From NCBI GenBank assembly GCA_000002435.2, contig CM018791.1: a stretch of DNA of 64,000 nt; one strand, 5' to 3'. Position numbers and translations under genes: made by a program. Under the pieces are notes generated by a model. That model was not told the origin of the DNA and made no database searches. It saw only the letters and a program-made list of their open reading frames with translations. Positions within the stretch are counted from its first letter, which is position 1. Each line of letters opens with the position of its first letter. This document shows, in pieces, positions 30,150 to 61,365 of the stretch. The stretch comes from Giardia intestinalis. Taxonomy: Eukaryota.

Positions 30150-30764
30150 TTACGAGATCGCAGAAGCAACAGGAGGAGAGAGCATTCGGGCTAGTTCCGG
30201 TTCACAGAGCTTTATTGCTCGGTCGATCCTCTCATTGAATGTTTCTTCTATGGTCACGGCTCCAGAGGCGGAGTACAAGCGGATGCCCATTACATCTTCT
30301 GGAAGCGATTCCGTGGAGGACAACGTTACAGTATGACAAAACTGCCTACCGACAATATAGTTTCTGACATGATCTGAATCACATGCACGCGAAACCAAAA
30401 CGCAATCATCACCAAGAGTATCTATAGATTCCTGAATGATGCTGCAAAGTGCTGTGTAATAAGCTGGAGTGCGATCAATCTGCTTGAGGCTTGTTTTAGC
30501 GGCATCTCGCACCCTATCAATTATACCTTGAACGGCCTCTGCCATGCGAAAGGTACGCGTGATTTCAAGGCGAGAGATCTGGGAGGCACGGTCTTCCTCG
30601 AGGCTTCGGCGTTTTTCACAAAGTAGCTCCTCCACGCGCTCACGGTCAGCACGCTTCTGCGCCCGCGAGGCAATGAATCCCCGCATGGCGATTTCCGCAC
30701 GCGTCTCAAAGACAAGGCTGTCATGCTCGGAGATCGTCGCGTACAGCGAACCTGCGGTAATCAT
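30150..30764 (-). CDS. Probable V-type ATPase subunit E.
   Basis: 204 aa. N-terminal charged helix (QKRADRERVEELLCEKRRSLEE...). The C-terminal segment SLPEDVMGIRLYSASGAVTIEETFNERIDRAIKLCEPELARML aligns with the subunit E end ([42 protein letters not shown]). AGTAAAC signal ~17 nt past the stop. Confidence 0.55.
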   Translation of the reverse strand: MITAGSLYATISEHDSLVFETRAEIAMRGFIASRAQKRADRERVEELLCEKRRSLEEDRASQISRLEITRTFRMAEAVQGIIDRVRDAAKTSLKQIDRTPAYYTALCSIIQESIDTLGDDCVLVSRACDSDHVRNYIVGRQFCHTVTLSSTESLPEDVMGIRLYSASGAVTIEETFNERIDRAIKLCEPELARMLSPPVASAIS

Positions 30765-30784
30765 AAATCTAAATTAAGGGAGAA

Positions 30785-30791
30785 ATTCACT
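30785..30791 (-). terminator. Poly(A) signal AGTGAAT 5 nt downstream of the alpha-tubulin TAA stop.
   Basis: Reverse complement of plus-strand attcact. Confidence 0.5.
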
Positions 30792-30794
30792 CGC

Positions 30795-32159
30795 TTAGTA
30801 GGCGTCGTCCTCCTCCATGTCCTCGCCCTCGCCGTCGCCAAGGGTCTCGGCGCCGATCTCCTCGTAGTCCTTCTCGAGGGCGGCGAGGTCCTCGCGGGCC
30901 TCGGAGAACTCGCCCTCCTCCATGCCCTCACCGACGTACCAGTGCACGAAGGCGCGCTTGGCGTACATCAGATCGAACTTGTGGTCCATGCGGGACCAGA
31001 CCTCGGCGATGGCCGTCGTGTTGGAGATCATGAGGCAGGAGCGCTGGACCTTCGCAAGGTCGCCGCCGGGGATGACGGTCGGGGGCTGGTAGTTGATGCC
31101 GACCTTGAAGCCTGTCGGGCACCAGTCGACGAACTGGATCGTGCGCTTCGTCTTGATGACCGCGATGGCCGCGTTGACGTCCTTCGGGACGACGTCGCCG
31201 CGGTACATCATGCAGCACGCCATGTACTTGCCGTGGCGGGGGTCGCACTTGACCATCATGTTCGCCGGCTCGAAGACGGAGTTGGTGAGCTCGGCGACGG
31301 AGAGCTTCTCGTGGTACGCCTTCTCGGACGAGATGATGGGCGCGTACGAGCAGAGCGGGAAGTGGATGCGCGGGTACGGGACGAGGTTCGTCTGGAACTC
31401 CGTCAGGTCGACGTTGAGGGCGCCGTCGAAGCGGAGCGAGGCCGTGATCGAGGAGATGCACTGGGCGATCAGGCGGTTGAGGTTCGTGTATGTCGGGCGC
31501 TCGATGTCGAGGTTGCGGCGGCAGATGTCGTACATGGCCTCGTTGTCGACCATGAAGGCGCAGTCGGAGTGCTCAAGCATCGAGTGCGCGGCGAGGATCG
31601 TGTTGTACGGCTCGACGACGGCCGTCGCGATCTGGGGCGAGGGGTAGACGACGAACTCGAGCTTGGACTTGCGGCCGTAGTCGACGCTCAGGCGCTCGAG
31701 GAAGAGGGACCCGAAGCCGGCGCCCGTGCCTCCTCCGAAGGAGTGGAAGATCAGGAAGCCCTGGAGCCCGGAGCAGTTGTCTGCGAGCTTGCGGACGCGG
31801 TCGAGGACGAGGTCGACGATCTCCTTGCCGATCGTGTAGTGCCCGCGGGCGTAGTTGTTGGCGGCGTCCTCCTTGCCAGAGATCAGCTGCTCGGGGTGGT
31901 AGAGCTGGCGGTACGAGCCCGCGCGGACCTCGTCGACGACCGTGGGCTCGAGGTCAACGAAGACCGCGCGCGGGACGTGCTTGCCGGCGCCCGTCTCCGA
32001 GAAGAACGTGTTGAACGCGTCGTCGCCGCCCCCGATCGTCTTGTCGGACGGCATCTGGCCGTCGTGCTGGATCCCGTGCTCGAGGCAGTAGAGCTCCCAG
32101 CAGGCGTTGCCGATCTGGACTCCGGCCTGGCCGATGTGGACCGAGATGCACTCACGCAT
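30795..32159 (-). CDS. Alpha-tubulin.
   Basis: [30 protein letters not shown]..., [10 protein letters not shown], ...[25 protein letters not shown]..., acidic tail ending Y. 454 aa. GC-rich codon usage. AGTGAAT 5 nt past the TAA stop. Confidence 0.97.
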
Positions 32160-32466
32160 TTTTATTTCCGCCCGTCCAGACTCTGGAATTTGGCTGATTT
32201 AAATTTAAAATGATTTTAATCAGGCCCCAGAACGATCTCTCAACTTTCCTTATGATGCGTTTCAGTGCACAATCTTCGCATTCTGCCGGCACTCTGTCAC
32301 TCTCAACATTTCAGAACTGGCTCAAAAGACCAATCTCAATATAATTTTTTTAAGAGAAGAAAACTTAGTGCTCTTTGTGCCGCTGCGTCATTGCATTCTA
32401 GAATGATCAGTGACTCCTTACCAGGTCTTTTGGATTACTCGGTTAATTCAAAAATATACATTACAA

Positions 32467-43287: not shown

Positions 43288-43404
43288 AAGCACTTCGTTC
43301 GCCCCCGGGTAGTCCTAGCGATCAAAAAGCTGGTGTGGTGTTGGCCTCGAGTGCAGGTGCTAAGGGGCTATGCAATATACACCAGTGAAAATATTACGTG
43401 GTGG

Positions 43405-46335
43405 TGCTGCTGGGGCCTGCCTGCGGGCGCTGTCCGCAAATCTCGCGAGTAAATTCCCGCTCAATTTTTGGCGATGTCCGGAGACGAGGGTTGGTCGTGT
43501 ATCAATATAAAGACCACAGTGGTGGTAGGGAGGAGCTGTCTGCATTCCTCGGCTGTTCTGCGGGTGTGTGCTCGGTCTAGGTGTGCACATAGGTCCTTTT
43601 GGAGATCAAGCCGTCCTGCAGGCTCGCTGGTCTACTAGGGTGCCTCTTCTTGTTCTCCCTTCACGGTGAGTGAAGCTCAGGTCTTTGTTGTCATTCTCAA
43701 TACTGTCCATACAGATCAGCAGCAGCTAACGGGGCGTTCTCTCCTGGTTGGGATTCCACTCGACTGCGTGTCCAGTCTTGGGCCCCTTCTCGATCGTTGT
43801 CGTCGGGTCCCGGGGATGGGCTCATTCGGTTGTCAGAAGTAGGATGACAGGAGGCGGTCGCTCTGGGTGACCAGGCTTTCGGCCCGGCCCGTCTGATCAG
43901 CTTCGTCGGGTGCTCGTTCGCCTCTGCAGCCATGTGGGCGATGGCGAAGGCAGCCCGGACAGAGAGCTTCTCGACGTCCACGTAGAGCTCCTCGAGGTGC
44001 CTCTTGGACTTGGGGTGGAGGGATCCGTCTGTCTCGTCCCTGTACTTCTTGACCTTCTCGTTGTAGTAGGCATCCATCTGGCGGGGCTGGATGACGCCCA
44101 CATCTATCGCCTTGCACTTGTCGACGAGCCAGATGTCGGGCTTCTGGTTCTGGTCGCTGAGGTGGCTGTGGGTCTTGACCTCCAGCTCTGCGTTGAACTT
44201 CCCTGAGACGCGGAGGTACAGGCACGCGACGATCATGTCGTGCCTCGTGGCAGCCCGGGCAGGTGCCTCTTGTCTGCGCCATGATCGAGCCATCTCTCTC
44301 CTTCAGGGCCCTTTCCTCCTCGGTCAGCACGCCGCCGCTCTGTCCGGAAGCTGGTGTATGCGTGAGGAGGCGGTTGAAGTAGGTCCCTTCCCCTGCAGTG
44401 CCTGGCCTTCCACCGACAGCTCCACCGGGTCTCTGGCTCCCTTGTTGACGTCCGGGGAGGCCCATACCCTCCGCAGCTCGTCGTGGCAGAGCCCCGGCAT
44501 GAGCAGGCCCGGGCCGCCCTTCTCCTTCGGGTACGCCAGGAAGTCGACCAGGCGATCGCAGCTTCTGTTAGTTATTTTGCTGAAGCCTTGTGCGATGTCT
44601 GTCGAGCTCCTCGTAGTCCGCCTTGTCCGATGTTACTTCGACCAGGGGGGCGTAGTTCACCATCGGGACCACACAGAGTGACACCAGGATGAGCTTCTGG
44701 TGGGTGGTTATGGGGGCAGTCTCAGCACCTGCGATGGCCTTCGGCGCGGGACTGGCAGGGGTGGGGGACACCGGGTGGTTGAGGAAGGTCACCTCCTCGC
44801 CCGCCATGGTGGACTTGCATTTGTCGCTCCTGATCGTCAGGCCCATGGTCTGCTGTGTTATCGCGCCTGCCGGGTAGGCCTCGTCGTGGAGCGTCACGAT
44901 GTCGTCCGCTAGGCAAGGAAGGTGATGCCCCTCTCCCTGAGGCGTCTCAGAGGCGCTCGGTAGCCATGCAGAAGAGGAACATGCTGAGCGGGTCGCCCTG
45001 GGGGACGCCGCAGACCTCGCACTTCACGTCCCGGCTGTGCCTCAGGTCGAGGAAGTTCCTGATGTAGTCGACCAGGACCTTCGGGACGCCCGCCTCGTTC
45101 AGGGCTCTGACGACCTCCGCCCTTGGGAGCGAGTTGAAGGCCTTCTTTGTGTCGAGGGAGACGGCGTGCATCCCCGGCCTGCTGATGAGCTCGTGGGCCC
45201 TCCTCACGCCTACCGCGTATGCGTTCTGCATGAAGGCGATCTGTTCGCACGAGAGGTAGTTGGCATGCTTGATCAGCCGCTTCAGCAGGACGCGGTGGAA
45301 GATGTTTGTCACCGTCTTGCCTATCGCGATCGGACGGTATCCGTCGGACTCCTTCGGGATGAGGATCGCCCGGAACTCGAACATGGCCGTCACCTCGGGC
45401 ATCGCCTCGGGGTGGGTGGTCAGCTCGTTGTACGCCTGCGTGAGGTACTTCACGAAGCTATCGTTCTGCTTCATCGCTTTGAGCTGGACCGGCCCGAGAC
45501 CAGACAGGCCTTGTTGAGGGTTCCAAACAGGACCTTCCTCATTTCTTCTTCGGTTGCCACTCCAGCCCCGTCGAGCTCATCGATGGAGGGCAGTCAAGGC
45601 CAACGTGGCCTTTGGGAGGACGCACGGGTGTCTCATCAAGGGCGCGGAGGGCCTTGGCAACTGCTCCGAAGCTCAGCGCGTTGTTCACCCTATTTGGAGC
45701 GGTGTCTCCTTCTGGGTCTGCTATGCTGTGCTGCTTGCTCCGGGCCTCCTACCAGGGTGTTCAGGCCCTTGTTAACGAGGAGCGCGACCCCAGTCCCGGC
45801 CTGCTCGATGCTCGCGATCATGCGCGCACCCTGGTGGATGAGCATGGCAAGCTCTGTCTGGTTCGGTATATGGGATGGAATGATCAGTTTGTCGTCGCCT
45901 AGCATTCTGTGTCTGTCATCGTTTGCTTCTCTCAGGTGCTCGGTCAGTTGCTTGGCGCTCTCGCACGGTAGGCCACAGAGCCAGCGTGTGTGTCCTGCTG
46001 AGAGAGTAAATGTCTTCGGAGTGGTCTCCCAAGTAGAGACTCACGGCTTGCTCTCTGGGTGTCCCTGAGGTACGATTTTGCATTCGTAGTGCAGATCTGG
46101 TCCTCGCGGGCTCTCCTTCGCCTCAGGTCCAGCTGTGCTCACGCCCGTAGAACAGCCGTGGAACGCACAGACCCCAGATCCACACGTGGAGGGAACCCCT
46201 CTTTGCCCCCGCTGTGGTTATCGTTGCAACCCGCGGCCAACCCTCATCTCCGGACTGGCTGGGAATTGAGCAAGAGTTTACCCGTGAGACCTCTGGACCA
46301 TACCTGCAGACAGGCCTCAGCGGCACACCACTGGA
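43405..46335 (-). mobile_element. Degenerate copy of an RLE-clade (R2-like) non-LTR retrotransposon in minus orientation, truncated at both ends relative to the second copy. Compatible with a Giardia GilD/GilM/GilT-type element, but the family is not determinable here.
   Basis: Reverse-transcriptase motifs in fragmented frames (RPIAIGKTVTNIFHRVL; SLDTKKAFNSL; GVPQGDPLSMFLF; LADDIVTL). C-terminal CCHC and PD-(D/E)xK endonuclease remnants (CPGCH..., KPDIWLVDKCKAIDVGV). Translated ORFs identical to the copy at 54.7-57.7 kb. GC-rich. Confidence 0.75.
44947..45474 (-). pseudogene. Reverse-transcriptase fragment (motifs 1-5) of the minus-orientation retroelement copy. Frame is broken on both sides.
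   Basis: 175-aa ORF MKQNDSFVKYL...RPIAIG...SLDTKKAFNSL...GVPQGDPLSMFLFCMATERL. The YxDD-equivalent LADDIVTL continues in another frame (44568..44897). Confidence 0.7.
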
Positions 46336-47030
46336 AGCAACCGGTGGATGGAGTGAATGTGTCCATGAGCAGAAGGGCGGGCCGGGCGTCTCTTCCGCAC
46401 CAACCAGGGATCGACCTGGGGGTCCACGGGCACACGCTACAGTCCAGGAGGACACATGGTGAGCGCACCCCGACGGCAGGATCGATGGTCCACTCCACGA
46501 GGAGGCGAGAAGGAACCCGAGTAGACATTCCAAGGCCATGACACATGCGACCTTCATCATGTAGCACCGAGCGACTCTGGACTACATGCAGGGATCATTG
46601 CTGCCAGGGCCAGATCGTTGCAACTGACAATAGGGCCTTGGGGTAGCGGTGCTTACCAGGTGTCAGGCAGCAGCCGACCCCCACAGAAGTTGAACGAAGG
46701 AAAGGAGAAGCCCTTGGAAGGCACTGCGAAGAACATGCAGTGACCCCGAAGGGCGAGGAGGCATAGGGGTCTTCTCTCGCTAGAGTTAGATGGCACCTGA
46801 GTGAAAGACCCTCTTGGTGAAATGGCAACTCGCATGAAGGACTTACTCAAGCAGCAGCTAATAAACTAGCTTCGGTGACACAGGGTAAATTTCATAAATC
46901 AAGATTTGTTTTATAGTATTTTGGCACGGGCTGGGAATGTGAGGTACTCCTCTTGTAAAGTCTATCTTCCAGAGTTCTTTGCTCCTTTTGAAGAGACACG
47001 ATAGGTTTACTTGTGAGGTCACAAAGCAGT

Positions 47031-49232
47031 CTAAGGATCATTATGACCATCGACACCAAGTGTACTACTGCTGCTAAGGAGAGACAATATTTCGGAATAG
47101 CCCCTAGTCTCAAGCTCACTAAAAAAGAACTTGTTAGATTTGTCTACTAGGTGTCCCTCCTTTTCAAATAGCAGTTTTACTATTTCTAAGTGGCCAGTAA
47201 ATGCTGCATACATGATAGCAAGCATACCATAATTGTCCTCCATACCGTTTTCATACTTCATTAGCAGTTCTACTATTTCTAAGTGGCTATTAAGTGCTGC
47301 ATACATGAGAGCAGTCTTATTTTTACTATCTTTCATTCCAGCCTCACACCCCAGCAATAGTCTTACTACCTCCAGATAGCCATCAGAGGCCGCCCTCATA
47401 AGGGCTGTTACGCCATTGAGGTCCTTCATAGTGCTCTCACGGTTCATTAGCATTTTCACTATCTCTAAGTGCCCCCTAGATGCGGCCTCCATGAAAGCAG
47501 TTGTTCCAAAAACATCTTGTGCACAACTTTCATGGTCTATTAGTAGTCTTGCTACCTCTGTGTGGCCGCCTATTGCTGCTCGCATTAATGCCGTGACACC
47601 AAATTCATCGGTTGGCTCAAGAATATCCATAACAATTTTGTGCCCTGCATCCCTAGCAATCGTCAGGGCCGTATTACCTTCGTTGTCGACTAGGTCCCTC
47701 TCGTACGGGATCAAAATGGAGGCAGTTTCTGCGCTACCATTCTCTGCAGCGATCATTAGGGCAGTCCAGCTACTGTTATTCCTCTTTCCATGCTCATGAG
47801 GGACGAGAATTTCAACTACCTCAGGGTGGTTGCTGTGTGCGGCGTGCATGAGTGCAGTCCAGCCATTCTTGTCTCTGAAGCCATTCTCCTCCTCAACAAG
47901 CAGCTTGACAGGACCGATGTGCCCCTGCTGGGCTGCGTGCATGAGGGCCGTCATCTTCTGCTCATCGCGCTGACCAATATTGAATCCCTCGTTGACCAAG
48001 GTCCAAACGGCCTCCATGTCATTCGTGTGTGCAGCACGTATCAGCCTAGGGAGCAAGAGGAGATTGAACTGAGAGTTGGATGTAGCTAATCCAGTGCTAA
48101 GTTGTGCGATTCTATTTTCTAGTACTCTTATTATGGCTAGGTACTCTTTATCCCGATCTTCAAGCGCATCAATCCTGGTGAATTTAATTCGAGGCTCCTG
48201 TCCCAAACTGTCGATTTTACTTTGCCTACTCTCGAGGGCTGTCTCAAGAGCAGTGATCCTGTCCAATTTGGCCTCCGCATCCGCTTCCAGAAGTGCGATC
48301 CTGGTATTAATATTACTTAGCGCATCCTCCAAGGAGCCGCATTTGCCTTCTAGTACCACTTGCCGAGGTTCTAGCTCACTAACTGGGACGTCGAATGTGG
48401 TGAGCATTTCATACAGCTCCTTGGCTGTCAGTCTTTCCTCAGGATCTAGTACAAATATCCTCTTTAGAATGCCCTTTATGAAGTTACTAGTTACACCGCT
48501 CAGGTCTGGCCTCCACCCGTCGACGAAGACCTTTGCCGGCTCCTCACCCTCCAGGAAGTCCGGTCTCCTCAGAGTTACTAGTTCATAAATGATGACCCCG
48601 AGGCTCCACATGTCGGAAGCATGGCTGGTCTCATTACGGAGGAGAATCTCGGGGGCCATGTACGCCACTCCCATGATAGTGCTCTCACTCCACAGGGCGT
48701 CTATGCAGAGGCTAAGGCCAGCAAGGACGACGTGTTTGTTATCTGCGCTGATGAGGATATTGGTAGGCCTAAGATCGCAGTGAACAAGCTCCTCAACATC
48801 TACCTCACTAACGCTGTGGAGATAGGCGAGGGCGGCAGCGATCTGTTTCACAATGAAGAGGATCACGCTAACAGAGATAAAGTTTCTCTTTCGTTTGTAC
48901 TTGGTGAGAAGACGCTTGAGAGTCTTGTCGTGGCGATCCATGACAATGTAAATGAAGCCCTCGTTCTCAATAATTTGATGGTACCTGAGGATCCCTGGGT
49001 GGGAGAGCTCGGGGAAGGTAATCAGCTCTAGTCTGCTGGCATCCACGCTGCTCCTGTCCAGATGATCGAGGATGATCTCCTTCACGGCGAGACTCGGATA
49101 GCCCTTGAGGGAGTAGACTGCGCCCGTGATGCTTTCATTAAGCACGTCGTCTATCAGCTCGTGGAGCTCCCTGGGGGTGAACATAGGCACCCTGAGAGCC
49201 ACCGTTGCAGACTCAGATGAAGCAGCGTGCAT
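47031..49232 (-). CDS. NEK-family kinase-like protein with a central coiled-coil and C-terminal ankyrin repeats. Probably catalytically inactive.
   Basis: N-terminal kinase fold with VAIK-like LAVKEI, HCDLRPTNIL in place of HRDLKPxN, AGL in place of DFG, no GxGxxG, and APE present (YMAPEIL). Coiled-coil LEADAEAKLDRITALETALESRQSKIDSL. At least 8 ankyrin repeats (TALMHAAQQGH..., TALMIAAENGS...). ATG after aaaataataaaacgggATG. Confidence 0.75.
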   Translation of the reverse strand: MHAASSESATVALRVPMFTPRELHELIDDVLNESITGAVYSLKGYPSLAVKEIILDHLDRSSVDASRLELITFPELSHPGILRYHQIIENEGFIYIVMDRHDKTLKRLLTKYKRKRNFISVSVILFIVKQIAAALAYLHSVSEVDVEELVHCDLRPTNILISADNKHVVLAGLSLCIDALWSESTIMGVAYMAPEILLRNETSHASDMWSLGVIIYELVTLRRPDFLEGEEPAKVFVDGWRPDLSGVTSNFIKGILKRIFVLDPEERLTAKELYEMLTTFDVPVSELEPRQVVLEGKCGSLEDALSNINTRIALLEADAEAKLDRITALETALESRQSKIDSLGQEPRIKFTRIDALEDRDKEYLAIIRVLENRIAQLSTGLATSNSQFNLLLLPRLIRAAHTNDMEAVWTLVNEGFNIGQRDEQKMTALMHAAQQGHIGPVKLLVEEENGFRDKNGWTALMHAAHSNHPEVVEILVPHEHGKRNNSSWTALMIAAENGSAETASILIPYERDLVDNEGNTALTIARDAGHKIVMDILEPTDEFGVTALMRAAIGGHTEVARLLIDHESCAQDVFGTTAFMEAASRGHLEIVKMLMNRESTMKDLNGVTALMRAASDGYLEVVRLLLGCEAGMKDSKNKTALMYAALNSHLEIVELLMKYENGMEDNYGMLAIMYAAFTGHLEIVKLLFEKEGHLVDKSNKFFFSELETRGYSEILSLLSSSSTLGVDGHNDP

Positions 49233-49544
49233 CCCGTTTTATTATTTTGGTACTTTACTGTTTTAGAAACGGGTCGTTTTACATAGGTTAATATCTACAG
49301 GTCTATAGCGATCCCATGTCTGTGGAGAGCTTCTGCATAAGAGGCGAGAAGGCTGCCTGTGCAATCGTTTCACCTACCCCTGGTGTTCCAGTGCTGGCCG
49401 GGGGTGAGAAGGCCAGCCCCCTCTGACCTCTGTGGAAACGGATGGTTGTGTGACCCACTGACAGCCATCACTTCACCCTAGTGGCTGGCCATCCCTTTGC
49501 ACAGCTGGAGGGGACTACGATCTATCATCAAATTCGATCAACAG

Positions 49545-50222
49545 TTAAGCGAGTTCACTCACAGGTTCTTTAGGCGGTATCCTCAAGTAGGGATCCACTA
49601 GCCTAATACCATTGCTTTCAAGAAGAGATACTACCCTAGAGTGATTCCACCTATTAGCCATACGGATGGCAGACTCGCCACCGACATTCTTCTCCCTCTC
49701 CAGCAGTAACCTGACACAGTCTAGATGATTATAGCCTGCTGCAACCGTGAGAGCAGTACAGCCCTTACCCTTCTTCATGCCACCTTCAGTCCTTAAAAGT
49801 AGTCTCACGACCTCAGCGTGGCCAATAAATGCTGCCCACATAAGGGCTGTCCATTCATTACTGCTCCTCATGCAACTCTCATGCTTTCTCAGCAGCCTCA
49901 CCACCTCAGCGTGTCCAAGCACCGCGGCGACCATCAGGGCTGTCCCCTCATATATATTTATGCCTCCCACATTGACAAGCTTCGCCACCATTCTTGCCTG
50001 ATAAGGGATGTAGCGCTTCACCGCATCCACATCGTTCCTCTTAGCTGCCTCCATAAGTGTGGTGACGCCGTTTCCGTCCACGCTGCCTTCATCATCTAGT
50101 TCTGAAGACTCAGTAAGACTGTTCTTGCCCGCGCCCTCTTCGCTCGTGTCCTTCTCTGGCGCGAGGGGCGGGGCGCAGTCGTGCTTCTGAAGGAACTGAC
50201 CTAAATCATCCGCAGACGACAT
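49545..50222 (-). CDS. Small ankyrin-repeat protein (Protein 21.1-like). The start is placed at the second ATG (50222, MSSADDLGQ...), which is preceded by cgaaataaaaATG. The track ORF extends to 50294.
   Basis: Ankyrin repeats (TTLMEAAKRNDVDAVKRYI; TALMVAAVLGHAEVVRLL; TALMWAAFIGHAEVVRLLL; TALTVAAGYNHLDCVRLLL). Confidence 0.65.
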   Translation of the reverse strand: MSSADDLGQFLQKHDCAPPLAPEKDTSEEGAGKNSLTESSELDDEGSVDGNGVTTLMEAAKRNDVDAVKRYIPYQARMVAKLVNVGGINIYEGTALMVAAVLGHAEVVRLLRKHESCMRSSNEWTALMWAAFIGHAEVVRLLLRTEGGMKKGKGCTALTVAAGYNHLDCVRLLLEREKNVGGESAIRMANRWNHSRVVSLLESNGIRLVDPYLRIPPKEPVSELA

Positions 50223-50622
50223 TTTTATTTCGTAGTCACAAAGGAAACGCGTGTAACGGTAAACTTGCGATTCACGGTATTGTTTACAGATCATCCAAGA
50301 TAGTTCGCTTCACTGACTATTCACTGTGCCGTGCTCCTCTGTAGTAACAAGTTGACTGTTTAGGGGTAATGAACTTTATGGGGCCTCTCTTCGGCAACCA
50401 GGAGCTCCCGGCTCTCGTAAGTGGAAACAACGCCAGAGCTAGTGCTCGTGGCGATCCAAGCAAGCCTCGCCCATCCGAGCAGGCCTGCGTCGTCCTGTCC
50501 TACGAGGAGTACTTGATGGGTGAATTGCAATAGCTGATCATTACTAGAGGGTTCCGTGGACATGCATTGCTCGAGCGTGTCTCAGAGCACTGCCTACAAG
50601 TCTATATACGGCACCAGTATGC

Positions 50623-50636
50623 GTTTACTACCTAAG
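50623..50636 (-). terminator. Conserved VSP 3' element and poly(A) signal CTTAGGTAGTAAAC downstream of the VSP at 50649..52748.
   Basis: Reverse complement of plus-strand gtttactacctaag. Matches the AGTRAAY Giardia polyadenylation consensus and the extended motif seen after the other two VSP stops. Confidence 0.6.
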
Positions 50637-50648
50637 TCACATCTAAAT

Positions 50649-52748
50649 CTACGCCTTCCCGCGGCAGAGGAACCACCAGCAGAGGAAGCCGACGAGACCC
50701 CCAACGACGACGATGACTGCGACGGAGATGCCGGCTATGGCGCCCATGCTGAGGCCACTCTTGTTCGTGCTTCCGCCAGTATTGTCGCCGGTATTATCAT
50801 CCGTTTCGAAACATATGAACTTGCCGTTAACAGGTGTCGCGCACTGCCTGCATCCAGCCAGCCCCTCGGAGCACCTCTTGCACAGCCCATTACTGCTACT
50901 CTCCTTGTAATATCCAGGAGCACATACCTTGCATGTAGTAGCACCGGCTTCGCAGGTGTAGCAACTTTCGTGGCATTTCGTGCAGGCACTGCCAACCTTC
51001 ACATATCCGTCCATACACCTAGAACAGTCCTTAGTGGTGGTGCACTCAGCGCACCCAGTGTAGCAAGCCACAAGGCTCTCGCCTGTCAGGCTAAATCCTT
51101 CTTTCGGAGTCTTGCAGGTGCCGCCTGTACTCTGCGCACTCAAGCACACTGTCGACCCCGGAAGCTGGCTGGTGGAGTAGCAGCCGCCGTTCATCTTGAA
51201 GAAGCCGTCTGCGCAGACATTGCACACGCCACCGGTAATGCTTCCATCTTTGCACTTATCTGTGCGACTGACTTTAACAGCACAGACACCGTTCTGGGGA
51301 TACTCGTTGTTTTGACTACAGACAGAGCAGTATTTTGTCCCCTCAACAGTCAGACCGCACTCCCTGCACTTACCTGTGCCTGTGCCCGCCGCGCACTCGG
51401 CCCCACATGTGCCAGTGTTTCCTGTGGATCCGTAGGTGAGCGCGCTTCCAGACTTACAGCTTGTGCAATCATTGGCAGTATTTCCGCTACATGTCTTACA
51501 GCTGGAATCGCAAGGGGAGCACGCTTCGCCGTAGAAGCCGTCCTTACAGAGACCGCACCCGCCATTTTCACTGCACGCGAGACAGTTGGCGACCTCGCAC
51601 TTCTTGCAGACCCTCTTGTTGCCCTCTGTGCTACTGTAGTAGCCTAGAATATATTCGCAGTGATCTATGCACTGGCTTGTTGGCGCCAGATACTTGTTGG
51701 ACAGACATTCGGTGCAGATCTCTTTGTTTGTTTGTGCACCACTGCATGCCTTACAATCCTGAGTATTGCATGGATTTGAAGGGGAATCATTTGGCACGCA
51801 TTGTGTTTCTTCTTCGTTAAGCTTAAATCCATCATTGCACGTGCAAGTATTCTCGGTCTTGGCTTCTGAGTTATCAGGGCAGCTACTAATGCACGACTTC
51901 TTTCCGAGTCCAAATACCATATTTGCCTTACACGCTGTGCAGGTAACGGAGGTGTCACTTTTGGTGCATGTTTTGCAGTTCTCAAACGTTCCTGCCGTGC
52001 ACGGCTTGCAACTCTTAGGCTCGGTATCATCTGGGTAGAGGGTAGAATCGGTGGAGCACTGATTTCCTTCTACACATATCCCCGTTAGACTACCGCTTTC
52101 CTTCTTTAAATACATCTTACCGGTAGCCTTGCACTTGCTGCACTTCTTTGTGGTTGTCGCCTCTGTACATGTAGCGCAGTTCTCGTCGCCGCAAGCTGTG
52201 CAGGTCGTAGTACCTGCGCCGAAATAGCCTTCATCACACGCGGTGCATGTAGCAGGGCCAGTATTGCTTGGAGGAGTACATGTTTTACATTGATCTACAC
52301 CTTGGTATTGATCTGCCCCCGTCGTGTCATTACAGGAGATGCACGATTGCTTATTAGCGGCTGCCACTGGACTCTTAAAGAATCCTTCCACACAATCCTT
52401 ACAAACCCCTATTACCTTATCGCTTGCCGCTCCCCCTACTGGATCGGCACAGATAAGCCCGCCCAATTCGCCAGCAAATTCATAACATCCGCCCTTGTAC
52501 ATGAAGTATCCATCGCCGCAAGAGCCACACTTTCCTTGAGCAGGGGAAGCGCATTTAGCAGCTGCTTGGTCAGTCCCTGCTGGTACACATTCTCCATCAA
52601 TAAGGTGGTCTGTTTCGGTTTTACACTGTGTGCAAACTTCCGTTTTGCCAATCATATCACACTCACCATCTTTACACTTACTTGCAGTTGGCCCACTGCA
52701 CGATGCTGCAAGAGCACTTATCAAAAGGCAGGGAGCTAGTAGCAACAT
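50649..52748 (-). CDS. Variant-specific surface protein (VSP), complete, ~699 aa from the ATG at 52748 (signal peptide MLLLAPCLLISALAASC). The track ORF extends artefactually to 52835.
   Basis: About 12% Cys with many CxxC and GGCY motifs, a C-terminal transmembrane segment, and the invariant tail GGLVGFLCWWFLCRGKA. Followed by TGACTTAGGTAGTAAAC 9 nt after the TAG stop. Confidence 0.9.
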   Translation of the reverse strand: MLLLAPCLLISALAASCSGPTASKCKDGECDMIGKTEVCTQCKTETDHLIDGECVPAGTDQAAAKCASPAQGKCGSCGDGYFMYKGGCYEFAGELGGLICADPVGGAASDKVIGVCKDCVEGFFKSPVAAANKQSCISCNDTTGADQYQGVDQCKTCTPPSNTGPATCTACDEGYFGAGTTTCTACGDENCATCTEATTTKKCSKCKATGKMYLKKESGSLTGICVEGNQCSTDSTLYPDDTEPKSCKPCTAGTFENCKTCTKSDTSVTCTACKANMVFGLGKKSCISSCPDNSEAKTENTCTCNDGFKLNEEETQCVPNDSPSNPCNTQDCKACSGAQTNKEICTECLSNKYLAPTSQCIDHCEYILGYYSSTEGNKRVCKKCEVANCLACSENGGCGLCKDGFYGEACSPCDSSCKTCSGNTANDCTSCKSGSALTYGSTGNTGTCGAECAAGTGTGKCRECGLTVEGTKYCSVCSQNNEYPQNGVCAVKVSRTDKCKDGSITGGVCNVCADGFFKMNGGCYSTSQLPGSTVCLSAQSTGGTCKTPKEGFSLTGESLVACYTGCAECTTTKDCSRCMDGYVKVGSACTKCHESCYTCEAGATTCKVCAPGYYKESSSNGLCKRCSEGLAGCRQCATPVNGKFICFETDDNTGDNTGGSTNKSGLSMGAIAGISVAVIVVVGGLVGFLCWWFLCRGKA

Positions 52749-55533
52749 TGTGGCTCTGCTCAGATTGTTAGGTACATGCGAATGGGGAACCATTCGTAAC
52801 CTGACCTCTAGCCATCCAATGCTAGAGCTTACCAATCCAGTAGCATAGCAATTACTTTAGGAATGCTGATCTATTTATAGAGTACATCACACAAAATAAC
52901 TATATGACGTTTACTTAGGTAGCCGATGCATCAGTTATCGTATCATTATAGATTTATAGGTTGCACCATAAAAGTTATGCGCAAACCTCCACATAGATGC
53001 CTAAGGCCACAAGTCGAAGACGAAAAGCAGAAGCTAAAAAGCAATTCCCCGTGACTCTTGACCCCCACTTCTGCACCGTCCCCATTCGATGCAGGACGCC
53101 TCATCATCCGGTCCTTCCAAGTCTCTATGCATGATCCGTGGCCTTGTGTTCCGCACTGTGCCTTGCATCCTGGTAGTCACCTCCACCGGGTCCTTGCCAG
53201 CGGGGCCGACGGTCTCACAGCGATCGCGTATGACAGAGCAGTCACCATCTGATGTGCGAGCCCTGTGATAGGCCGTGATGTTGGAAGGCGACATCGGTTA
53301 AAGAGGAGGCATGGCCACACATTACGAGCCACGATGACATGGCACATTGCATAGCATCGTGATATATGCGTGCATAACCGGTACACCAATAGGCATAGAA
53401 ACAGCACACCAGTGCCACCAGGTCATGATGACCACTCTACCCACCAGTTATTTTTAAGACTGTGCTACTGGAGCCTACCTACAGGCGTGGTCCAGAGACT
53501 TCAGAAGTAAGTCTCACCCAAGTCATGGTCAGTGTGGAGACAAGGGTTGATCGTTGATGGTATATTAAGGGAATTTCCCTCCATTTGTATATTAGAGTCT
53601 CTTGTATTCCTCGGTCGCTTCATGCGATGTGCGTGTCCAGGGGTGCTCGTGTGTCTGTCCAGGGTTCAGACCTTTGCAAGGACACACGTTGTCCATTAGT
53701 ATGCCTCGCTTTTTAATCTGCCGTCTGGTGAACGAGCCTGGGTTGTCACTTCTTTTTCAATAGAAGTCTCCTCTGTCGCGACGGCTGCTATCGAGGTCTG
53801 GCTTTACTGGCTGGGGTCGTCTCTCGGTGACCGTCCAGCCGTGGTCCCGGAGGCCGGCGTTCCCTCCTGTTCGTAGTCCCCCAGGTCAGTGGGTCCAGTC
53901 GACAGTTAGAAGCAGGCCGGCAGGAGGAGTTGCCGGGTGGACGCCACAAGGTAGTGAAGGCCAGACAGAGCGCTCCCGGCGTCGCTGGGCCCCTTGAACT
54001 TAATTTACTCTCCACTTCACCGGGGTGGGGTTGTCCCCTGCTACCTGAGCGACCTCCCATGCGAGCTACTACCGCCCTGGACAGGTGGATCTCCCGCTTA
54101 CTCCCAAACAGAGTCCAGAACCCAAAATCCAAACCTAGAATCCGGTGCCGTAATTCCGGCGGAAAAAGACGCCCTAACGTCCAGCCTTCATCAAACAACA
54201 GACCCGCGGCTGCTCCCATGAAAGCGCCACCGAGGAAACCTCACAGAACCCTGAAGCGAAAAGCCAAGAAGGCACCCAGCAGCGTGAACGAAAGGGCGTG
54301 GAGACGAAAGCAGGGAAGCTCCGCACCTCCCTCCACCGAACCTCCCTGTCATGGAGAGCGGTGCATGGTGGCAGGCCCTCAATGGTCCCAACGGGGTCAA
54401 TCACTGACTACACGAACTGGCTCAAGGATGCTGGAGTTCACTCAAGGTGCTGCGCCTTCGGATCTCTCCTACGCGATCTGCAGCACGAGGAGCCGCCACA
54501 CCTTCTTCATATCACCGGAGGGCCTCGAGCGGCACGTCTGGGGAACTCTCTCCCGTCCGGGCACCTCCTGCAGCCTTGTGACAAGCAGACAGTGCCAGCC
54601 CACGCACCAGGCCCCGGCGCTCGAGCGCAGTGTCCTACGCGGGCCCTCGCCGTTGCCTGCCGTGATGCCCCGGACCAGTGGGTGCCGCTGAGGCCTGTCT
54701 GCAGGTATGGTCCAGAGGTCTCACGGGTAAACTCTTGCTCAATTCCCAGCCAGTCCGGAGATGAGGGTTGGCCGCGGGTTGCAACGATAACCACAGCGGG
54801 GGCAAAGAGGGGTTCCCTCCACGTGTGGATCTGGGGTCTGTGCGTTCCACGGCTGTTCTACGGGCGTGAGCACAGCTGGACCTGAGGCGAAGGAGAGCCC
54901 GCGAGGACCAGATCTGCACTACGAATGCAAAATCGTACCTCAGGGACACCCAGAGAGCAAGCCGTGAGTCTCTACTTGGGAGACCACTCCGAAGACATTT
55001 ACTCTCTCAGCAGGACACACACGCTGGCTCTGTGGCCTACCGTGCGAGAGCGCCAAGCAACTGACCGAGCACCTGAGAGAAGCAAACGATGACAGACACA
55101 GAATGCTAGGCGACGACAAACTGATCATTCCATCCCATATACCGAACCAGACAGAGCTTGCCATGCTCATCCACCAGGGTGCGCGCATGATCGCGAGCAT
55201 CGAGCAGGCCGGGACTGGGGTCGCGCTCCTCGTTAACAAGGGCCTGAACACCCTGGTAGGAGGCCCGGAGCAAGCAGCACAGCATAGCAGACCCAGAAGG
55301 AGACACCGCTCCAAATAGGGTGAACAACGCGCTGAGCTTCGGAGCAGTTGCCAAGGCCCTCCGCGCCCTTGATGAGACACCCGTGCGTCCTCCCAAAGGC
55401 CACGTTGGCCTTGACTGCCCTCCATCGATGAGCTCGACGGGGCTGGAGTGGCAACCGAAGAAGAAATGAGGAAGGTCCTGTTTGGAACCCTCAACAAGGC
55501 CTGTCTGGTCTCGGGCCGGTCCAGCTCAAAGCG

Positions 55534-56061
55534 ATGAAGCAGAACGATAGCTTCGTGAAGTACCTCACGCAGGCGTACAACGAGCTGACCACCCACCCCG
55601 AGGCGATGCCCGAGGTGACGGCCATGTTCGAGTTCCGGGCGATCCTCATCCCGAAGGAGTCCGACGGATACCGTCCGATCGCGATAGGCAAGACGGTGAC
55701 AAACATCTTCCACCGCGTCCTGCTGAAGCGGCTGATCAAGCATGCCAACTACCTCTCGTGCGAACAGATCGCCTTCATGCAGAACGCATACGCGGTAGGC
55801 GTGAGGAGGGCCCACGAGCTCATCAGCAGGCCGGGGATGCACGCCGTCTCCCTCGACACAAAGAAGGCCTTCAACTCGCTCCCAAGGGCGGAGGTCGTCA
55901 GAGCCCTGAACGAGGCGGGCGTCCCGAAGGTCCTGGTCGACTACATCAGGAACTTCCTCGACCTGAGGCACAGCCGGGACGTGAAGTGCGAGGTCTGCGG
56001 CGTCCCCCAGGGCGACCCGCTCAGCATGTTCCTCTTCTGCATGGCTACCGAGCGCCTCTGA
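55534..56061 (+). pseudogene. Reverse-transcriptase fragment of the plus-orientation retroelement copy.
   Basis: Identical 175-aa ORF to 44947..45474. Upstream motif-0-like sequence (GLGPVQLKAMKQ) is in a different frame from the preceding EEMRKVLFGTLNKACL, showing a frameshift. Confidence 0.7.
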
Positions 56062-56542
56062 GACGCCTCAGGGAGAGGGGCATCACCTTCCTTGCCTAGC
56101 GGACGACATCGTGACGCTCCACGACGAGGCCTACCCGGCAGGCGCGATAACACAGCAGACCATGGGCCTGACGATCAGGAGCGACAAATGCAAGTCCACC
56201 ATGGCGGGCGAGGAGGTGACCTTCCTCAACCACCCGGTGTCCCCCACCCCTGCCAGTCCCGCGCCGAAGGCCATCGCAGGTGCTGAGACTGCCCCCATAA
56301 CCACCCACCAGAAGCTCATCCTGGTGTCACTCTGTGTGGTCCCGATGGTGAACTACGCCCCCCTGGTCGAAGTAACATCGGACAAGGCGGACTACGAGGA
56401 GCTCGACAGACATCGCACAAGGCTTCAGCAAAATAACTAACAGAAGCTGCGATCGCCTGGTCGACTTCCTGGCGTACCCGAAGGAGAAGGGCGGCCCGGG
56501 CCTGCTCATGCCGGGGCTCTGCCACGACGAGCTGCGGAGGGT

Positions 56543-57367
56543 ATGGGCCTCCCCGGACGTCAACAAGGGAGCCAGAGACCCGGTGGAGCTGTCGGTGGAA
56601 GGCCAGGCACTGCAGGGGAAGGGACCTACTTCAACCGCCTCCTCACGCATACACCAGCTTCCGGACAGAGCGGCGGCGTGCTGACCGAGGAGGAAAGGGC
56701 CCTGAAGGAGAGAGATGGCTCGATCATGGCGCAGACAAGAGGCACCTGCCCGGGCTGCCACACGGCAGACCCTCGACCACGACATGAACTGCCCGAAAAC
56801 GGCGTGGACCAGGACCACGAGGCACAACATGATCGTCGCGTGCCTGTACCTCCGCGTCTCAGGGAAGTTCAACCGGAGCTGGAAGTCAAGACCCACAGCC
56901 ACCTCAGCGACCAGAACCAGAAGCCCGACATCTGGCTCGTCGACAAGTGCAAGGCGATAGATGTGGGCGTCATCCAGCCCCGCCAGATGGATGCCTACTA
57001 CAACGAGAAGGTCAAGAAGTACAGGGACGAGACAGACGGATCCCTCCACCCCAAGTCCAAGAGGCACCTCGAGGAGCTCTACGTGGACGTCGAGAAGCTC
57101 TCTGTCCGGGCTGCCTTCGCCATCGCCCACATGGCTGCAGAGGCGAACGAGCACCCGACGAAGCTGATCAGACGGGCCGGGCCGAAAGCCTGGTCACCCA
57201 GAGCGACCGCCTCCTGTCATCCTACTTCTGACAACCGAATGAGCCCATCCCCGGGACCCGACGACAACGATCGAGAAGGGGCCCAAGACTGGACACGCAG
57301 TCGAGTGGAATCCCAACCAGGAGAGAACGCCCCGTTAGCTGCTGCTGATCTGTATGGACAGTATTGA
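56543..57367 (+). pseudogene. Zinc-finger (CCHC) and restriction-like endonuclease region of the retroelement, frameshifted.
   Basis: CPGCH...(frame switch)...LDHDMNCPKTAWTRTTRHNMIVACLYLRVSGKFN...(frame switch)...KPDIWLVDKCKAIDVGVIQP. Compare R2Bm C..C...H...C / ARHNCVVNRI / KPDLVALRQNHIDVIDVQV. Confidence 0.65.
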
Positions 57368-59188
57368 GAATGACAACAAAGACCTGAGCTTCACTCACCG
57401 TGAAGGGAGAACAAGAAGAGGCACCCTAGTAGACCAGCGAGCCTGCAGGACGGCTTGATCTCCAAAAGGACCTATGTGCACACCTAGACCGAGCACACAC
57501 CCGCAGAACAGCCGAGGAATGCAGACAGCTCCTCCCTACCACCACTGTGGTCTTTATATTGATACACGACCAACCCTCGTCTCCGGACATCGCCAAAAAT
57601 TGAGCGGGAATTTACTCGCGAGATTTGCGGACAGCGCCCGCAGGCGAGGGCCCCGGCAGCTCGTTGCAGGCGGTGACAGAAGGGTCTCTCTGGCCAGTTG
57701 GGCAAGCATCATCCTATGCTTGCCACGGCCGCTGGGAATGCCGGTGTCACGTGTGTAGCTCGTAGGGTGAGCTCTTTTCGGAGCGCCCAATCTCCTTTTT
57801 ATCCGTGAAGGCGAGACCTGCTCACAACAGACCAATGACGACAGATAGATGGCTCCATATTGTTCACTCAGGCTGTCTACCCCAAGCAGTAGGGCCGTTC
57901 TCCTTCGTGAGGCAGAGGAGGCCATGTACCCACAAAGATACCCTTAAGTGAAGTGGCTTGGATGTGATATGTGTTTTCGGAGACTCTAGTGTACACAGTT
58001 GCTCATCCTCCGACACTGAGCCGGTCCGCAAGCCGCTGGCCACGCTGGAGTGCCCCGAAGCAGCCCAGGAGAGTGCGTGTGCTGATAGCTTGTCCGCCAG
58101 ACCCTCCTAGCAGCAGAGCGCCGTCGTGGCAGGAGAGCCTGCCCCTTGCATCGGCCGATCGGTTGCTGAGACCCCTGGTGCTCTGTCTGGAGCGGAGACT
58201 GTCCATGAGGGCCCTGTACGCTGCTCCCCTGCACCGACTGGCACAGCAGGGGGACCGGATGCCGAGGGACACCTCCAGCGTCTCGGGTCTCTACAGGACA
58301 GGACACACGGCAGGGACATCTGCATGCGGGCCAGAAGTCCTGCTCGGCCCCGTCCCTCGGCTGACGCCTTGGCCCCTCGGGAGCCCTGTCAGCACCACCG
58401 GAGGCAAGGACTCTCCAGGAGCGCTGCACCGGGCCCGCATGGAGTGGATGGCCCCACAGCCACTGCACGGGCCTCTCGGGCAGGGGGTCTCTTGCCGTGG
58501 CGGGGCTTCAGGCATGCCATCGGGACTGTCCGACGGTCACCGGTTGGGCCCTGTGTGACAGCAACAGACGAGAAGACTGTCCCACAACGAAATATCCCTC
58601 GCTGGAGGACTGTCAGCAGGGCAGGGGAAGCTGTGGCCCACTGGGGGAGTGAACGATCTCAGTGGGTCCAGGCGCACTGCACTGCGGGCCCCGTCGGGCC
58701 GGTCTCTGACGGGCGCCGCGATCACTCTGCCCGGTCTGGCAGATCACGAGGGGTCTGAGGCCGGCCTATTGGGAGGAGGACCAGGGCCCTCGCTGATGGT
58801 CGAGCAGAGTCACCACAGGGGGGCACGAGCTCGAGTGAATGAGGGCCCTCTTAGCAGCGCGCATGTCAACCGAGCGAGGAGAATGACATGGCAGTCACCA
58901 AGGAGCCATGACTTCTGAGCCTTCTGGGCTCTGCGCCGGGCCGGACATCAGCACAGCCCGCCTGCCGGTAGCACTGCCGCGGGGGTCTCCGTCGTGTGAG
59001 TGCCTGGGGTGAGCCGCTTGGGCACGGAGACGGGCTGTGCGGCGCCCAAGAGTGGAAGACCACCGCGCTCTGGTGCTGTGGGCCGAGTCGAGACAGGGGC
59101 CTCCAAGGCAGGGGTGGAACAGCGCTCCCCCCGTGTGCCGTGCTGGGTGGCCACAGACGGGGCAGGGGCCACCGCAGAGGACCCTCTA

Positions 59189-61351: not shown

Positions 61352-61365
61352 CTTAGGTAGTGAAT
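61352..61365 (+). terminator. VSP 3' conserved element and poly(A) signal CTTAGGTAGTGAAT.
   Basis: Immediately follows the TGA of the VSP. AGTGAAT fits the AGTRAAY consensus. Confidence 0.6.

What the first reader, a model, noticed from the sequence alone, without database searches (positions are those of the whole stretch)
43697..44465. Retroelement remnants retain a recognisable R2-type CCHC plus PD-(D/E)xK endonuclease signature; the two copies have decayed differently
Reading across three frames at 56.7-57.0 kb gives CPGCH / LDHDMNCPKTAWTRTTRHNMIVACLYL / KPDIWLVDKCKAIDVGVIQP. This parallels the R2Bm C-terminal domain (C..C...H...C, ARHNCVVNRI, KPDLVALRQNHIDVIDVQV) and places the element in the restriction-like-endonuclease clade to which Giardia GilM/GilT/GilD belong. 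The 43.4-46.3 kb copy lacks a ~57-bp segment present in the 54.7-57.7 kb copy (CHEARHDRRVP versus CHTADPRPRHELPENGVDQDHEAQHDRRVP). Conversely the 54.7-57.7 kb copy carries a ~69-bp insertion in the antisense ORF 56327..57154 relative to 43910..44681. Neither copy can encode an intact RT-endonuclease protein.
Basis: partly seen in the sequence, partly recalled or inferred. Interest (0 to 1): 0.5.

Follow-up and report, generated by a model that had tools for sequence, protein, structure and literature searches.

The report
Two dead Giardia retrotransposon copies
These are two inverted, long-dead copies of a known Giardia jumping gene (the GilD-type "reverse transcriptase/endonuclease" remnant), already annotated in the reference genome. 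The one small new point is that the copies have been kept almost identical by DNA copying between them.

Summary
The window is Giardia intestinalis WB chromosomal DNA. It holds two inverted ~2.96-kb copies of a degenerate non-LTR retrotransposon: A at ~43398-46366 (minus) and B at 54682-~57660 (plus). They flank a NEK kinase gene and a VSP gene. Frameshift-corrected translation gives Pfam RVT_1 (E=1.6e-19). A family profile of the C-terminal domain hits the CCHC plus restriction-like-endonuclease region of R2 proteins (E=4e-10). The RLE-clade assignment therefore holds.

The "~69-bp insertion" is the same indel seen from the other strand. The copies have not decayed independently: 2,841 aligned bases are identical and all five differences lie in one ~125-bp patch. 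At least eight frameshifts and seven 10-49-bp deletions are shared. The outermost ends differ, and another WB copy shares the deletion junction, so the best reading is old separate copies homogenised by gene conversion.

The 2007 WB annotation already calls the ORFs "Reverse transcriptase/endonuclease, putative". Size, location beside VSPs and microhomology deletions fit published descriptions of GilD. Verdict: already known, low interest.

The parts
43398..46366 (-). Copy A of the degenerate ~3-kb non-LTR element (GilD-type). Its core, 43419-46326, is near-identical to copy B.
   Evidence: for the core. for the ends: the 5' terminal repeat runs ~40 nt beyond the identity block, and the 3' end stops at ~43398.
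54682..57660 (+). Copy B of the same element, in inverted orientation relative to A.
   Evidence: Homology to DHA2 copies runs to 57660. The 5' end is cut at 54682.
44180..44247 (-). Copy A side of the only patch where the copies differ. It holds substitutions at 44180, 44189 and 44239, an extra base at 44191, and a deletion junction at 44246/44247-44250.
   Evidence: The deletion is 59 bp relative to the family, with CCAC microhomology at the junction.
56762..56884 (+). Copy B side of the patch. It includes the 57 bp absent from A (56762-56818), a 2-bp deletion just after CPGCH, a G>A change at 56826 (RHD>RHN), and a 1-bp deletion after ..KFN (~56874).
   Evidence: Copy B carries the derived states relative to six other copies.
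56747..56792 (+). CCHC zinc knuckle of copy B. CPGC (56747-56758) and H-x3-C (56778-56792) are split between two frames by the 2-bp deletion. The family consensus is CPGCHTARTLDHDMNC.
   Evidence: It aligns to the R2 CCHC.
56820..57010 (+). Restriction-like endonuclease core of copy B: RHN (56820-56828), KPD (56921-56929), D of IDVGV (56960-56962) and K of NEKVKKY (57008-57010). A 1-bp deletion interrupts it.
   Evidence: alignment to R2Bm RHN / KPD / DVQV / EKRNKY.
43697..44293 (-). 198-aa ORF of copy A. It holds an uninterrupted RHD...KPD...D...K nuclease core, preceded by 16 out-of-frame residues. Annotated in 2007 as XP_001705713.1.
   Evidence: No PDB or Pfam hit on its own. dN/dS against other assemblage-A copies is 0.57-1.07.
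55534..56113 (+). RT domain remnant of copy B. It comprises the 175-aa ORF 55534-56061 (XP_001705711.1) and an ADD box at 56099-56107, with the Y codon lost to a stop and a frameshift. The copy A equivalent is 44895-45474(-).
   Evidence: (RVT_1).
54682..54871 (+). 5' terminal inverted repeat of copy B, an imperfect inverted copy of the element's 3' end. The copy A equivalent is 46137-46366.
57460..57660 (+). 3' terminal repeat arm of copy B. The copy A equivalent is 43398-43571.
46367..54681 (.). 8.3-kb segment enclosed by the inverted pair. It holds NEK kinase 47031-49232(-) (XP_001705707.1) and VSP 50649-52835(-).

Best explanation
The window holds two copies of a dead, internally deleted (~3 kb) member of the Giardia 'Genie' clade of non-LTR retrotransposons. 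Its features fit published descriptions of GilD, the dead family.

**What the ancestral element was.** It was about 5 kb long with an ORF of about 1,550 aa. It encoded N-terminal zinc fingers, a reverse transcriptase, and a C-terminal CCHC knuckle plus a PD-(D/E)xK restriction-like endonuclease. By analogy with R2, it would have moved by target-primed reverse transcription: the endonuclease nicks the target and the RT copies the RNA from the nick.

**Why these copies are dead.**
- They lack the N-terminal ~714 aa.
- They have lost the Y of YADD to a stop plus a frameshift.
- They carry at least eight shared frameshifts.
- They carry seven shared 10-49-bp deletions.

**How they relate to each other.** A and B are separate, old insertions with different outer ends. 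Their interiors were recently homogenised by ectopic gene conversion between the inverted repeats. Conversion left one ~125-bp unconverted or separately converted patch beside a 57/59-bp heterology.

**Basis.** Shown here: sequence identity, domain homology, the lesions and the end differences. Inferred: the TPRT mechanism (by homology), gene conversion (from the pattern) and the GilD name (from published descriptions, not from direct alignment).
For: **Organism and prior annotation**
- Exact matches to G. intestinalis WB proteins, including three 'Reverse transcriptase/endonuclease, putative' entries for ORFs of these copies.

**RT domain**
- Pfam RVT_1, E=1.6e-19 on the stitched translation and E=3e-28 on the family's conceptual translation AAM12686.1.

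**CCHC plus RLE**
- The best PDB hits are R2 proteins, with a collinear C-terminal stretch.
- The domain profile gives E=4.3e-10 (9nl3), 5.5e-10 (9dou) and 7.9e-8 (R2Bm 8gh6, residues 933-1050). Influenza PA endonuclease comes next.
- KPD aligns with the position that reads KPA in the 8ibw variant.

**Death of the copies**
- tblastn against AAM12686.1 and the 1548-aa relative shows repeated frame changes and stops, with coverage of aa ~715-1548 only.
- Shared deletions are listed.

**Homogenisation**
- Zero mismatches over 2,080 nt and 761 nt, with all five differences inside about 125 bp.
- The chance that four point differences all fall within 68 nt of the indel is about 5e-6 (my arithmetic).
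- The termini differ: A keeps ~40 nt more of the 5' repeat, and the last ~20 nt at the 3' ends differ by indels and substitutions.
- The flanks are unrelated.
- Other copies are only 75-91% identical to these.
- A third WB copy (XP_001705782.1) reads across the same deletion junction and also shows the B-type shifted reading (NRSWKSRPTATS) after the FN/LN position, which implies exchange among copies.

**Fit to GilD**
- PMC7000408 gives GilM as 5,474 bp and subtelomeric, and notes RT remnants beside VSP pairs.
- The window has no telomere repeat.
Against: - The published GilD, GilM and GilT consensus sequences could not be obtained. The family name therefore rests on described properties, and on AAM12686.1, whose element name the databases do not give.
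- Gene conversion is inferred from the pattern alone. No reads were examined, so over-polishing of a repeat by the assembler cannot be formally excluded.
- The third WB copy was seen only as a protein, not as DNA.
- Microhomology at several shared deletion junctions is short or imperfect, 0-4 nt by strict count.
Confidence: 0.85

Rival explanations
1. A recent inverted segmental (DNA-level) duplication of one dead copy, followed by a few private mutations that happen to cluster.
For: The interiors are near-perfectly identical and all other lesions are shared.
Against: - The identity stops inside the element. The outer 15-40 nt of both ends differ, and each copy retains terminal sequence the other lacks.
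- No flanking DNA is duplicated.
- Five differences inside 125 bp against none in 2,841 bp is not what post-duplication drift gives.
- The deletion junction is shared with a third WB copy.
Confidence: 0.1
2. Two independent retrotranspositions of an already defective master RNA, mobilised in trans by an active Giardia element.
For: The 3-kb form keeps both termini of the 5-kb element and occurs in many copies that share the same internal deletion. This fits past spread as a non-autonomous derivative.
Against: - This explains the family but not this pair. Fresh insertions should have identical 3' ends, yet here the 3' ends differ by indels.
- No poly(A) tail or target-site duplication was evident.
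- The other copies are 9-25% diverged, so no near-identical master is visible.
Confidence: 0.03
3. An assembly or polishing artefact. Either the two copies were made falsely identical, or the patch is chimeric.
For: Repeats of ~3 kb are a classic source of such errors. No reads were available here.
Against: The exact products of both patch versions and of the shared RT ORF are in the protein set of the earlier, independently produced WB annotation (XP_001705713.1, XP_001703946.1, XP_001705711.1). The differences are not in homopolymers.
Confidence: 0.03
4. The 198-aa nuclease-core ORF of copy A is a domesticated, functional gene.
For: It is uninterrupted from RHD through KPD, D and K. It was once annotated as a gene.
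Against: - dN/dS against other assemblage-A copies is 0.57-1.07.
- Its first 16 residues are an out-of-frame reading of the knuckle.
- The identical region is frameshifted in copy B.
- It has no hit of its own in PDB or Pfam.
Confidence: 0.02

Closest known systems
GilD (Arkhipova & Morrison 2001), probably the same as Genie 2 (Burke et al. 2002); that equation is from my memory
   Same: - Giardia WB non-LTR element with only dead copies.
- Not telomeric; lies beside VSP genes.
- Disrupted by short deletions with junction microhomology (description in PMC2861651).
- About 3 kb long with terminal inverted repeats of ~170-190 bp. My recollection is that Genie 2 has inverted repeats up to 172 bp.
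- Falls in the same 90% cluster as the deposited conceptual translation AAM12686.1.
   Different: Nothing that was tested differs. Direct alignment to the named consensus sequences was not possible. The near-identity of this particular inverted pair, and the patchy conversion, are details I did not find described.
R2 elements (R2Bm, R2Tg and related; PDB 8gh6, 8ibw, 9dou, 9nl2/3)
   Same: Same domain order: RT, then a CCHC knuckle, then a PD-(D/E)xK restriction-like endonuclease. The RH(N/D), KPD, D and K motifs align. N-terminal zinc fingers are present in the full-length relative (seen by eye).
   Different: - Only ~25-30% local identity.
- A separate ancient clade (GENIE versus R2; PMC2790886).
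- Not inserted in 28S rDNA.
- Has terminal inverted repeats.
- The knuckle spacing is C-x2-C-x7-H-x3-C.
- The copies here are dead.
GilM / GilT (Genie 1-type telomeric Giardia elements)
   Same: Same host, and the same general RLE-type architecture.
   Different: - GilM is 5,474 bp, encodes an RT and sits in subtelomeric arrays (PMC7000408, PMC10999387).
- The element here is 2.96 kb, has no telomere repeat nearby and is dead.
- The only other long Giardia-like RLE ORFs recovered (P0045, P0046; identity unconfirmed) are 29% identical.

Membership tests
Non-LTR retrotransposon (RT-bearing) | Reverse transcriptase domain with motifs through the (Y)ADD box | tested here: met
   RVT_1 E=1.6e-19 on the stitched window translation. 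PQGDPLS and ADD are present, though Y is lost. The domain is recognisable but not functional.
RLE-bearing clades (R2/R4/NeSL/CRE/Genie) | C-terminal CCHC motif followed by a PD-(D/E)xK restriction-like endonuclease | tested here: met
   The family profile hits R2 proteins at E=4.3e-10 to 1.8e-5, over R2Bm 933-1050. Copy B keeps all motif residues but in split frames. Copy A has lost the H..C half.
RLE-bearing clades (R2/R4/NeSL/CRE/Genie) | No N-terminal APE (Exo_endo_phos) endonuclease | tested here: met
   Pfam scans of AAM12686.1 and of the 1548-aa relative give RVT_1 only, with no PF03372.
RLE-bearing clades (R2/R4/NeSL/CRE/Genie) | N-terminal zinc-finger DNA-binding region | tested here: inconclusive
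   C2H2-like strings are visible in P0056 and P0044 but gave no Pfam hit at E<=0.001. The window copies lack aa 1-714 and keep only one finger-like remnant.
GilD | All copies dead, with multiple frameshifts and stops | tested here: met
   Both window copies and the DHA2, GS and WB relatives are fragmentary or frameshifted.
GilD | Interstitial location next to VSP genes, not in subtelomeric arrays | tested here: met
   VSPs lie at 50649-52835 and from 59000 onward. There is no telomere repeat or rDNA. VSP fragments flank L004 and L006. Description from PMC2861651.
GilD | Disruption by microhomology-mediated deletions | tested here: met
   The 59-bp deletion has a CCAC junction. Seven further 10-49-bp deletions show 0-4 nt exact, or longer imperfect, junction repeats. 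The strength of the microhomology is modest.
GilD | Sequence identity to the published GilD consensus | not testable with these tools
   The paper and its sequences are not held. AAM12686.1 falls in the same 90% cluster, but its element name is not given.
GilM | ~5.5-kb element with an intact RT ORF in subtelomeric head-to-tail arrays | tested here: not met
   The element is 2.96 kb, dead and an inverted pair, with no telomere repeat. The GilM description is from PMC7000408.
Genie 2 (Burke et al. 2002) | Terminal inverted repeats of up to ~172 bp (feature recalled from memory) | tested here: met
   The 5' ~190 nt is an imperfect inverted copy of the 3' end in both window copies, in DHA2 copies and in the 5-kb relative. 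The defining feature itself could not be checked against the paper.

The most novel reading that the evidence does not exclude
The 2.9-kb near-perfect inverted repeats are not just debris. They may act as a recombination and/or hairpin-RNA module around an 8.3-kb VSP-NEK cassette. In that reading they flip the cassette by homologous recombination, or give rise to double-stranded RNA that feeds Giardia's small-RNA pathway. Continual gene conversion would keep the arms identical.
Probability: 0.07. Interest if true: 0.5.

Novelty: already known. Interest (0 to 1): 0.15.

Why it matters
It mostly does not matter. The element family, its RLE-type architecture and its dead state in isolate WB were published in 2001-2002, and these ORFs were already annotated.

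Two points have modest value. First, this pair is a clean example of patchy ectopic gene conversion between inverted repeats in a genome where recombination and homozygosity are debated. Second, a nearly intact 1,548-aa relative in assemblage-B-like metagenome contigs suggests that the 'dead' family may have been active recently, or may still be active, outside assemblage A.

Tried and rejected
- **Rfam and tandem repeats.** An Rfam scan and a tandem-repeat scan of the window found nothing relevant.
- **Papers.** The Arkhipova & Morrison paper is not held, by DOI or by PMC id. Searches for Genie 2 or AAM12686 in papers gave only noise.
- **Exact-protein look-ups.** Look-ups for the 198-aa ORF, XP_001705782.1 and the NEK kinase found no contigs, so the DNA of other WB copies could not be fetched. 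A look-up with a flanking gene returned only short-read contigs that stop short of the repeats.
- **Orthologous locus.** None of the fetched DHA2, GS or metagenome loci is orthologous to this locus. Only the element matches.
- **Nuclease domain in Pfam.** Pfam has no model that detects the nuclease domain. The uncorrected copy A ORF alone finds nothing in PDB.
- **Antisense ORFs.** The long antisense ORFs (56327..57154 and 54940..55971) have no Pfam hit. I treat them as by-products of GC-rich coding DNA, like the antisense ORF over the tubulin gene.
- **Domestication.** This was rejected on dN/dS.
- **Not run.** Structure prediction and the exhaustive representative search were not run, because the sequence-profile evidence was already decisive.
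Full report
**Source and setting**

Exact-sequence look-ups place the window in Giardia intestinalis WB clone C6.
- The NEK kinase at 47031-49232(-) is XP_001705707.1/KAE8303322.1, on a 1,973,847-bp contig.
- Two other window proteins are GL50803_0010883 and GL50803_0010871.
- Pfam finds Giardia VSPs at 50649-52835(-), 59000-61351(+) and 61158-63308(+), and NEK/ankyrin kinases around the finding.
- The window has no rRNA or other Rfam family and no telomere repeat.

**What is at the coordinates**

The repeat finder shows two inverted arms. An exact pairwise alignment defines copy A as 43419-46326, with the element reading on the minus strand, and copy B as 54682-57645 on the plus strand. There are no mismatches over 2,080 nt in the 5' part or over 761 nt in the 3' part.

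The only differences between the copies are:
- substitutions at A44180/B56884, A44189/B56875 and A44239/B56826;
- one extra base in A at 44191;
- 57 bp present only in B, at 56762-56818.

The alleged converse '~69-bp insertion' in the antisense ORF is the same indel seen from the other strand: 828-772 = 56 = 57-1. In copy A that region is in fact two ORFs.

**Domain identity**

- A frameshift-corrected translation of copy B gives Pfam RVT_1 at E=1.6e-19.
- Against PDB sequences, its best matches are R2 retrotransposon proteins (9nl2 at 1.3e-9, R2Bm 8gh6 at 4.9e-8). LINE-1 ORF2p scores far weaker.
- A second, collinear stretch aligns CPGC..H..C / RHN / KPD / DVGV / EKVKKY to R2Bm 932-1032.
- The KPD aspartate aligns with the residue that reads alanine in the 8ibw variant. 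I infer this is the engineered catalytic mutant.
- That second stretch is marginal on its own (i-E 0.05). I therefore built a profile of the C-terminal domain from better-preserved relatives (alignment A3).
- The profile alone hits the C-terminal region of R2 proteins: E=4.3e-10 (9nl3), 5.5e-10 (9dou) and 7.9e-8 (8gh6, residues 933-1050). The influenza PA endonuclease, a PD-(D/E)xK enzyme, comes next at E 0.015-1.
- Invariant columns in A3 are C, C, C of the knuckle, RHD, and the two aspartates.
- Pfam has no model that detects this domain. The uncorrected 198-aa ORF of copy A finds nothing in PDB.

At the finding's own coordinates in copy A, however, half of the knuckle is deleted and the rest is out of frame.

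**Family**

- Homology searches recover only Giardia sequences at high identity: DHA2, GS and WB gene calls, plus human-gut metagenome contigs.
- The ORFs of these very copies are already in the 2007 WB protein set as 'Reverse transcriptase/endonuclease, putative': XP_001705711.1, XP_001705713.1 and XP_001703946.1.
- A deposited 878-aa conceptual translation, AAM12686.1, falls in the same 90% cluster and aligns along the whole element.
- Six further copies fetched as DNA are 75-91% identical to copy B and end at the same 3' terminus.
- A 5,019-bp metagenome contig (L014) carries a nearly intact 1,548-aa ORF of the family. The window copies correspond only to aa ~715-1548.
- L014 has, in its 5' UTR, an inverted copy of the 3' end. 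The window and DHA2 copies have the same ~170-190-bp imperfect terminal inverted repeats.
- The 3-kb form is therefore an internal-deletion derivative that keeps both termini.

Published descriptions fit GilD.
- GilM, by contrast, is 5,474 bp and subtelomeric (PMC7000408), and GilM and GilT sit in the telomeric region (PMC10999387).
- The 2020 WB reference also tracks pseudo-reverse-transcriptases and notes RT remnants between divergent VSP pairs (PMC7000408).
- The Genie clade is one of the ancient clades grouped with R2, R4, NeSL and CRE (PMC2790886).
- The equation GilD = Genie 2, and the '172-bp inverted repeats' of Genie 2, are my recollection of Burke et al. 2002. I could not check them, and the primary GilD paper is not held.

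**State of the copies**

- Relative to AAM12686.1 and P0056, both copies change frame at least eight times in the same places.
- Both have a stop where the Y of YADD should be.
- Both lack 21-bp and 20-bp in-frame-like segments (ALRKIE., GTLPIIY).
- Relative to four other copies, they share seven deletions of 10-49 bp.
- A majority consensus of the copies restores an uninterrupted ~420-aa C-terminal ORF, which includes CPGCHTARTLDHDMNCPKTAWTRTTRHDMIV...KPDIWLVDKCKAIDVGV...NEKVKKY.
- dN/dS of the 182-codon nuclease ORF of copy A is 0.57-1.07 against assemblage-A copies and 0.34-0.58 against assemblage-B copies. This indicates neutral decay after an older period of constraint.

**The patch**

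In the multi-copy alignment, copy B carries these derived states:
- a 2-bp deletion directly after CPGCH, which splits the knuckle between frames;
- a G>A change turning the family's RHD into RHN;
- a 1-bp deletion after KFN;
- an A>G change.

Copy A is ancestral at three of the four point differences, the fourth being variable among copies, but lacks 59 bp relative to the family. That is 57 bp relative to B, because B's 2-bp deletion lies inside the stretch. The junction shows a CCAC repeat. So copy A keeps RHD-to-K in one frame (the 198-aa ORF), while copy B keeps every knuckle residue.

Four point differences falling within 68 nt of the indel, out of ~2,900 aligned positions, has a chance of about 5e-6 (my arithmetic).

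The WB protein XP_001705782.1, from a third copy, reads '...AQKEAPARAATRHDMIV...'. That is the same deletion junction as copy A. It also reads '...LNRSWKSRPTATS...', the B-type frameshift. These lesions are therefore shared among copies rather than private to each one.

**Relationship of A and B**

- The identity block ends inside the element.
- Copy A continues ~40 nt further into the 5' terminal repeat (ATTCACTCCATCCACCGGTTGCTTCCAGTGGT...), where copy B has unrelated DNA.
- At the 3' end, the last ~20 nt differ: A reads GCAGGC-AGG-CCCCAGCAGCACCACCAC and B reads GCAGGCGAGGGCCCCGGCAGC. Each copy keeps family sequence that the other lacks.
- The flanks are unrelated.

This is the pattern of two old, separately truncated copies whose homologous interiors were recently homogenised by ectopic gene conversion. 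The region next to a 57/59-bp heterology either escaped conversion or was converted separately. A fresh segmental duplication, fresh retrotransposition or an assembly artefact each fit less well; see the rival explanations. The presence of both patch versions as exact products in the earlier WB protein set argues against a sequencing artefact.

**Verdict**

It is wrong about a second indel and about independent decay. The object is a known, already annotated dead retrotransposon family in the reference strain. Novelty is 'already known' and interest is low.

Noticed in passing
L014:1-5019 (ENA ERZ28578994 scaffold_4674): A nearly intact 1,548-aa ORF of the same family, assemblage-B-like. It has N-terminal C2H2-like fingers, an RT and CCHC plus RLE, interrupted only by two compensating frameshifts in the nuclease and one near the end. 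The family that is dead in WB may have been active recently in other Giardia lineages.
   Followed up: partly
window 54682-54871 and 57460-57660; 46137-46366 and 43398-43571; L001, L004, L014: This non-LTR element has imperfect terminal inverted repeats of ~170-190 bp. The 5' end is an inverted copy of the 3' end, and this also holds in the 5-kb full-length relative. That is unusual for a non-LTR retrotransposon. I recall it being reported for Genie 2 but could not verify this.
   Followed up: partly
L004:860-900 and 4015-4080 (G. duodenalis DHA2 AHGT01000170.1): The DNA immediately outside both ends of this copy is mutually reverse-complementary (GTTGCACTCCCGAGACAGAGGTC / GACCTCTGTCTCGGGAGTGCAAC), with a VSP fragment at 2-238. 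It may be one of the divergent VSP pairs with an RT remnant between them that are described for WB.
   Followed up: no
window 59000-64000: A head-to-tail array of VSP genes or pseudogenes with a ~1.95-kb period. Repeat families D1-D4 are 80-94% identical, and ORFs 59000-61351 and 61158-63308 hit Pfam VSP.
   Followed up: partly
window 50651-50770, 61230-61349, 63187-63306: A conserved 120-nt stretch (81-82% identical) at the 3' ends of three VSP genes, in inverted orientation between the isolated VSP and the array.
   Followed up: no
window 30723-32213: The GC peak (0.59) at 30-32 kb is a tubulin gene at 30795-32159(-). A 496-aa ORF on the opposite strand has no Pfam hit and is probably spurious. 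This illustrates why the long antisense ORFs over the GC-rich retroelement are not evidence of genes.
   Followed up: partly
window 53930-54691: A 253-aa ORF with a TTG start runs into the 5' end of copy B and has no Pfam hit. Its significance is unknown, and it is likely non-coding.
   Followed up: no
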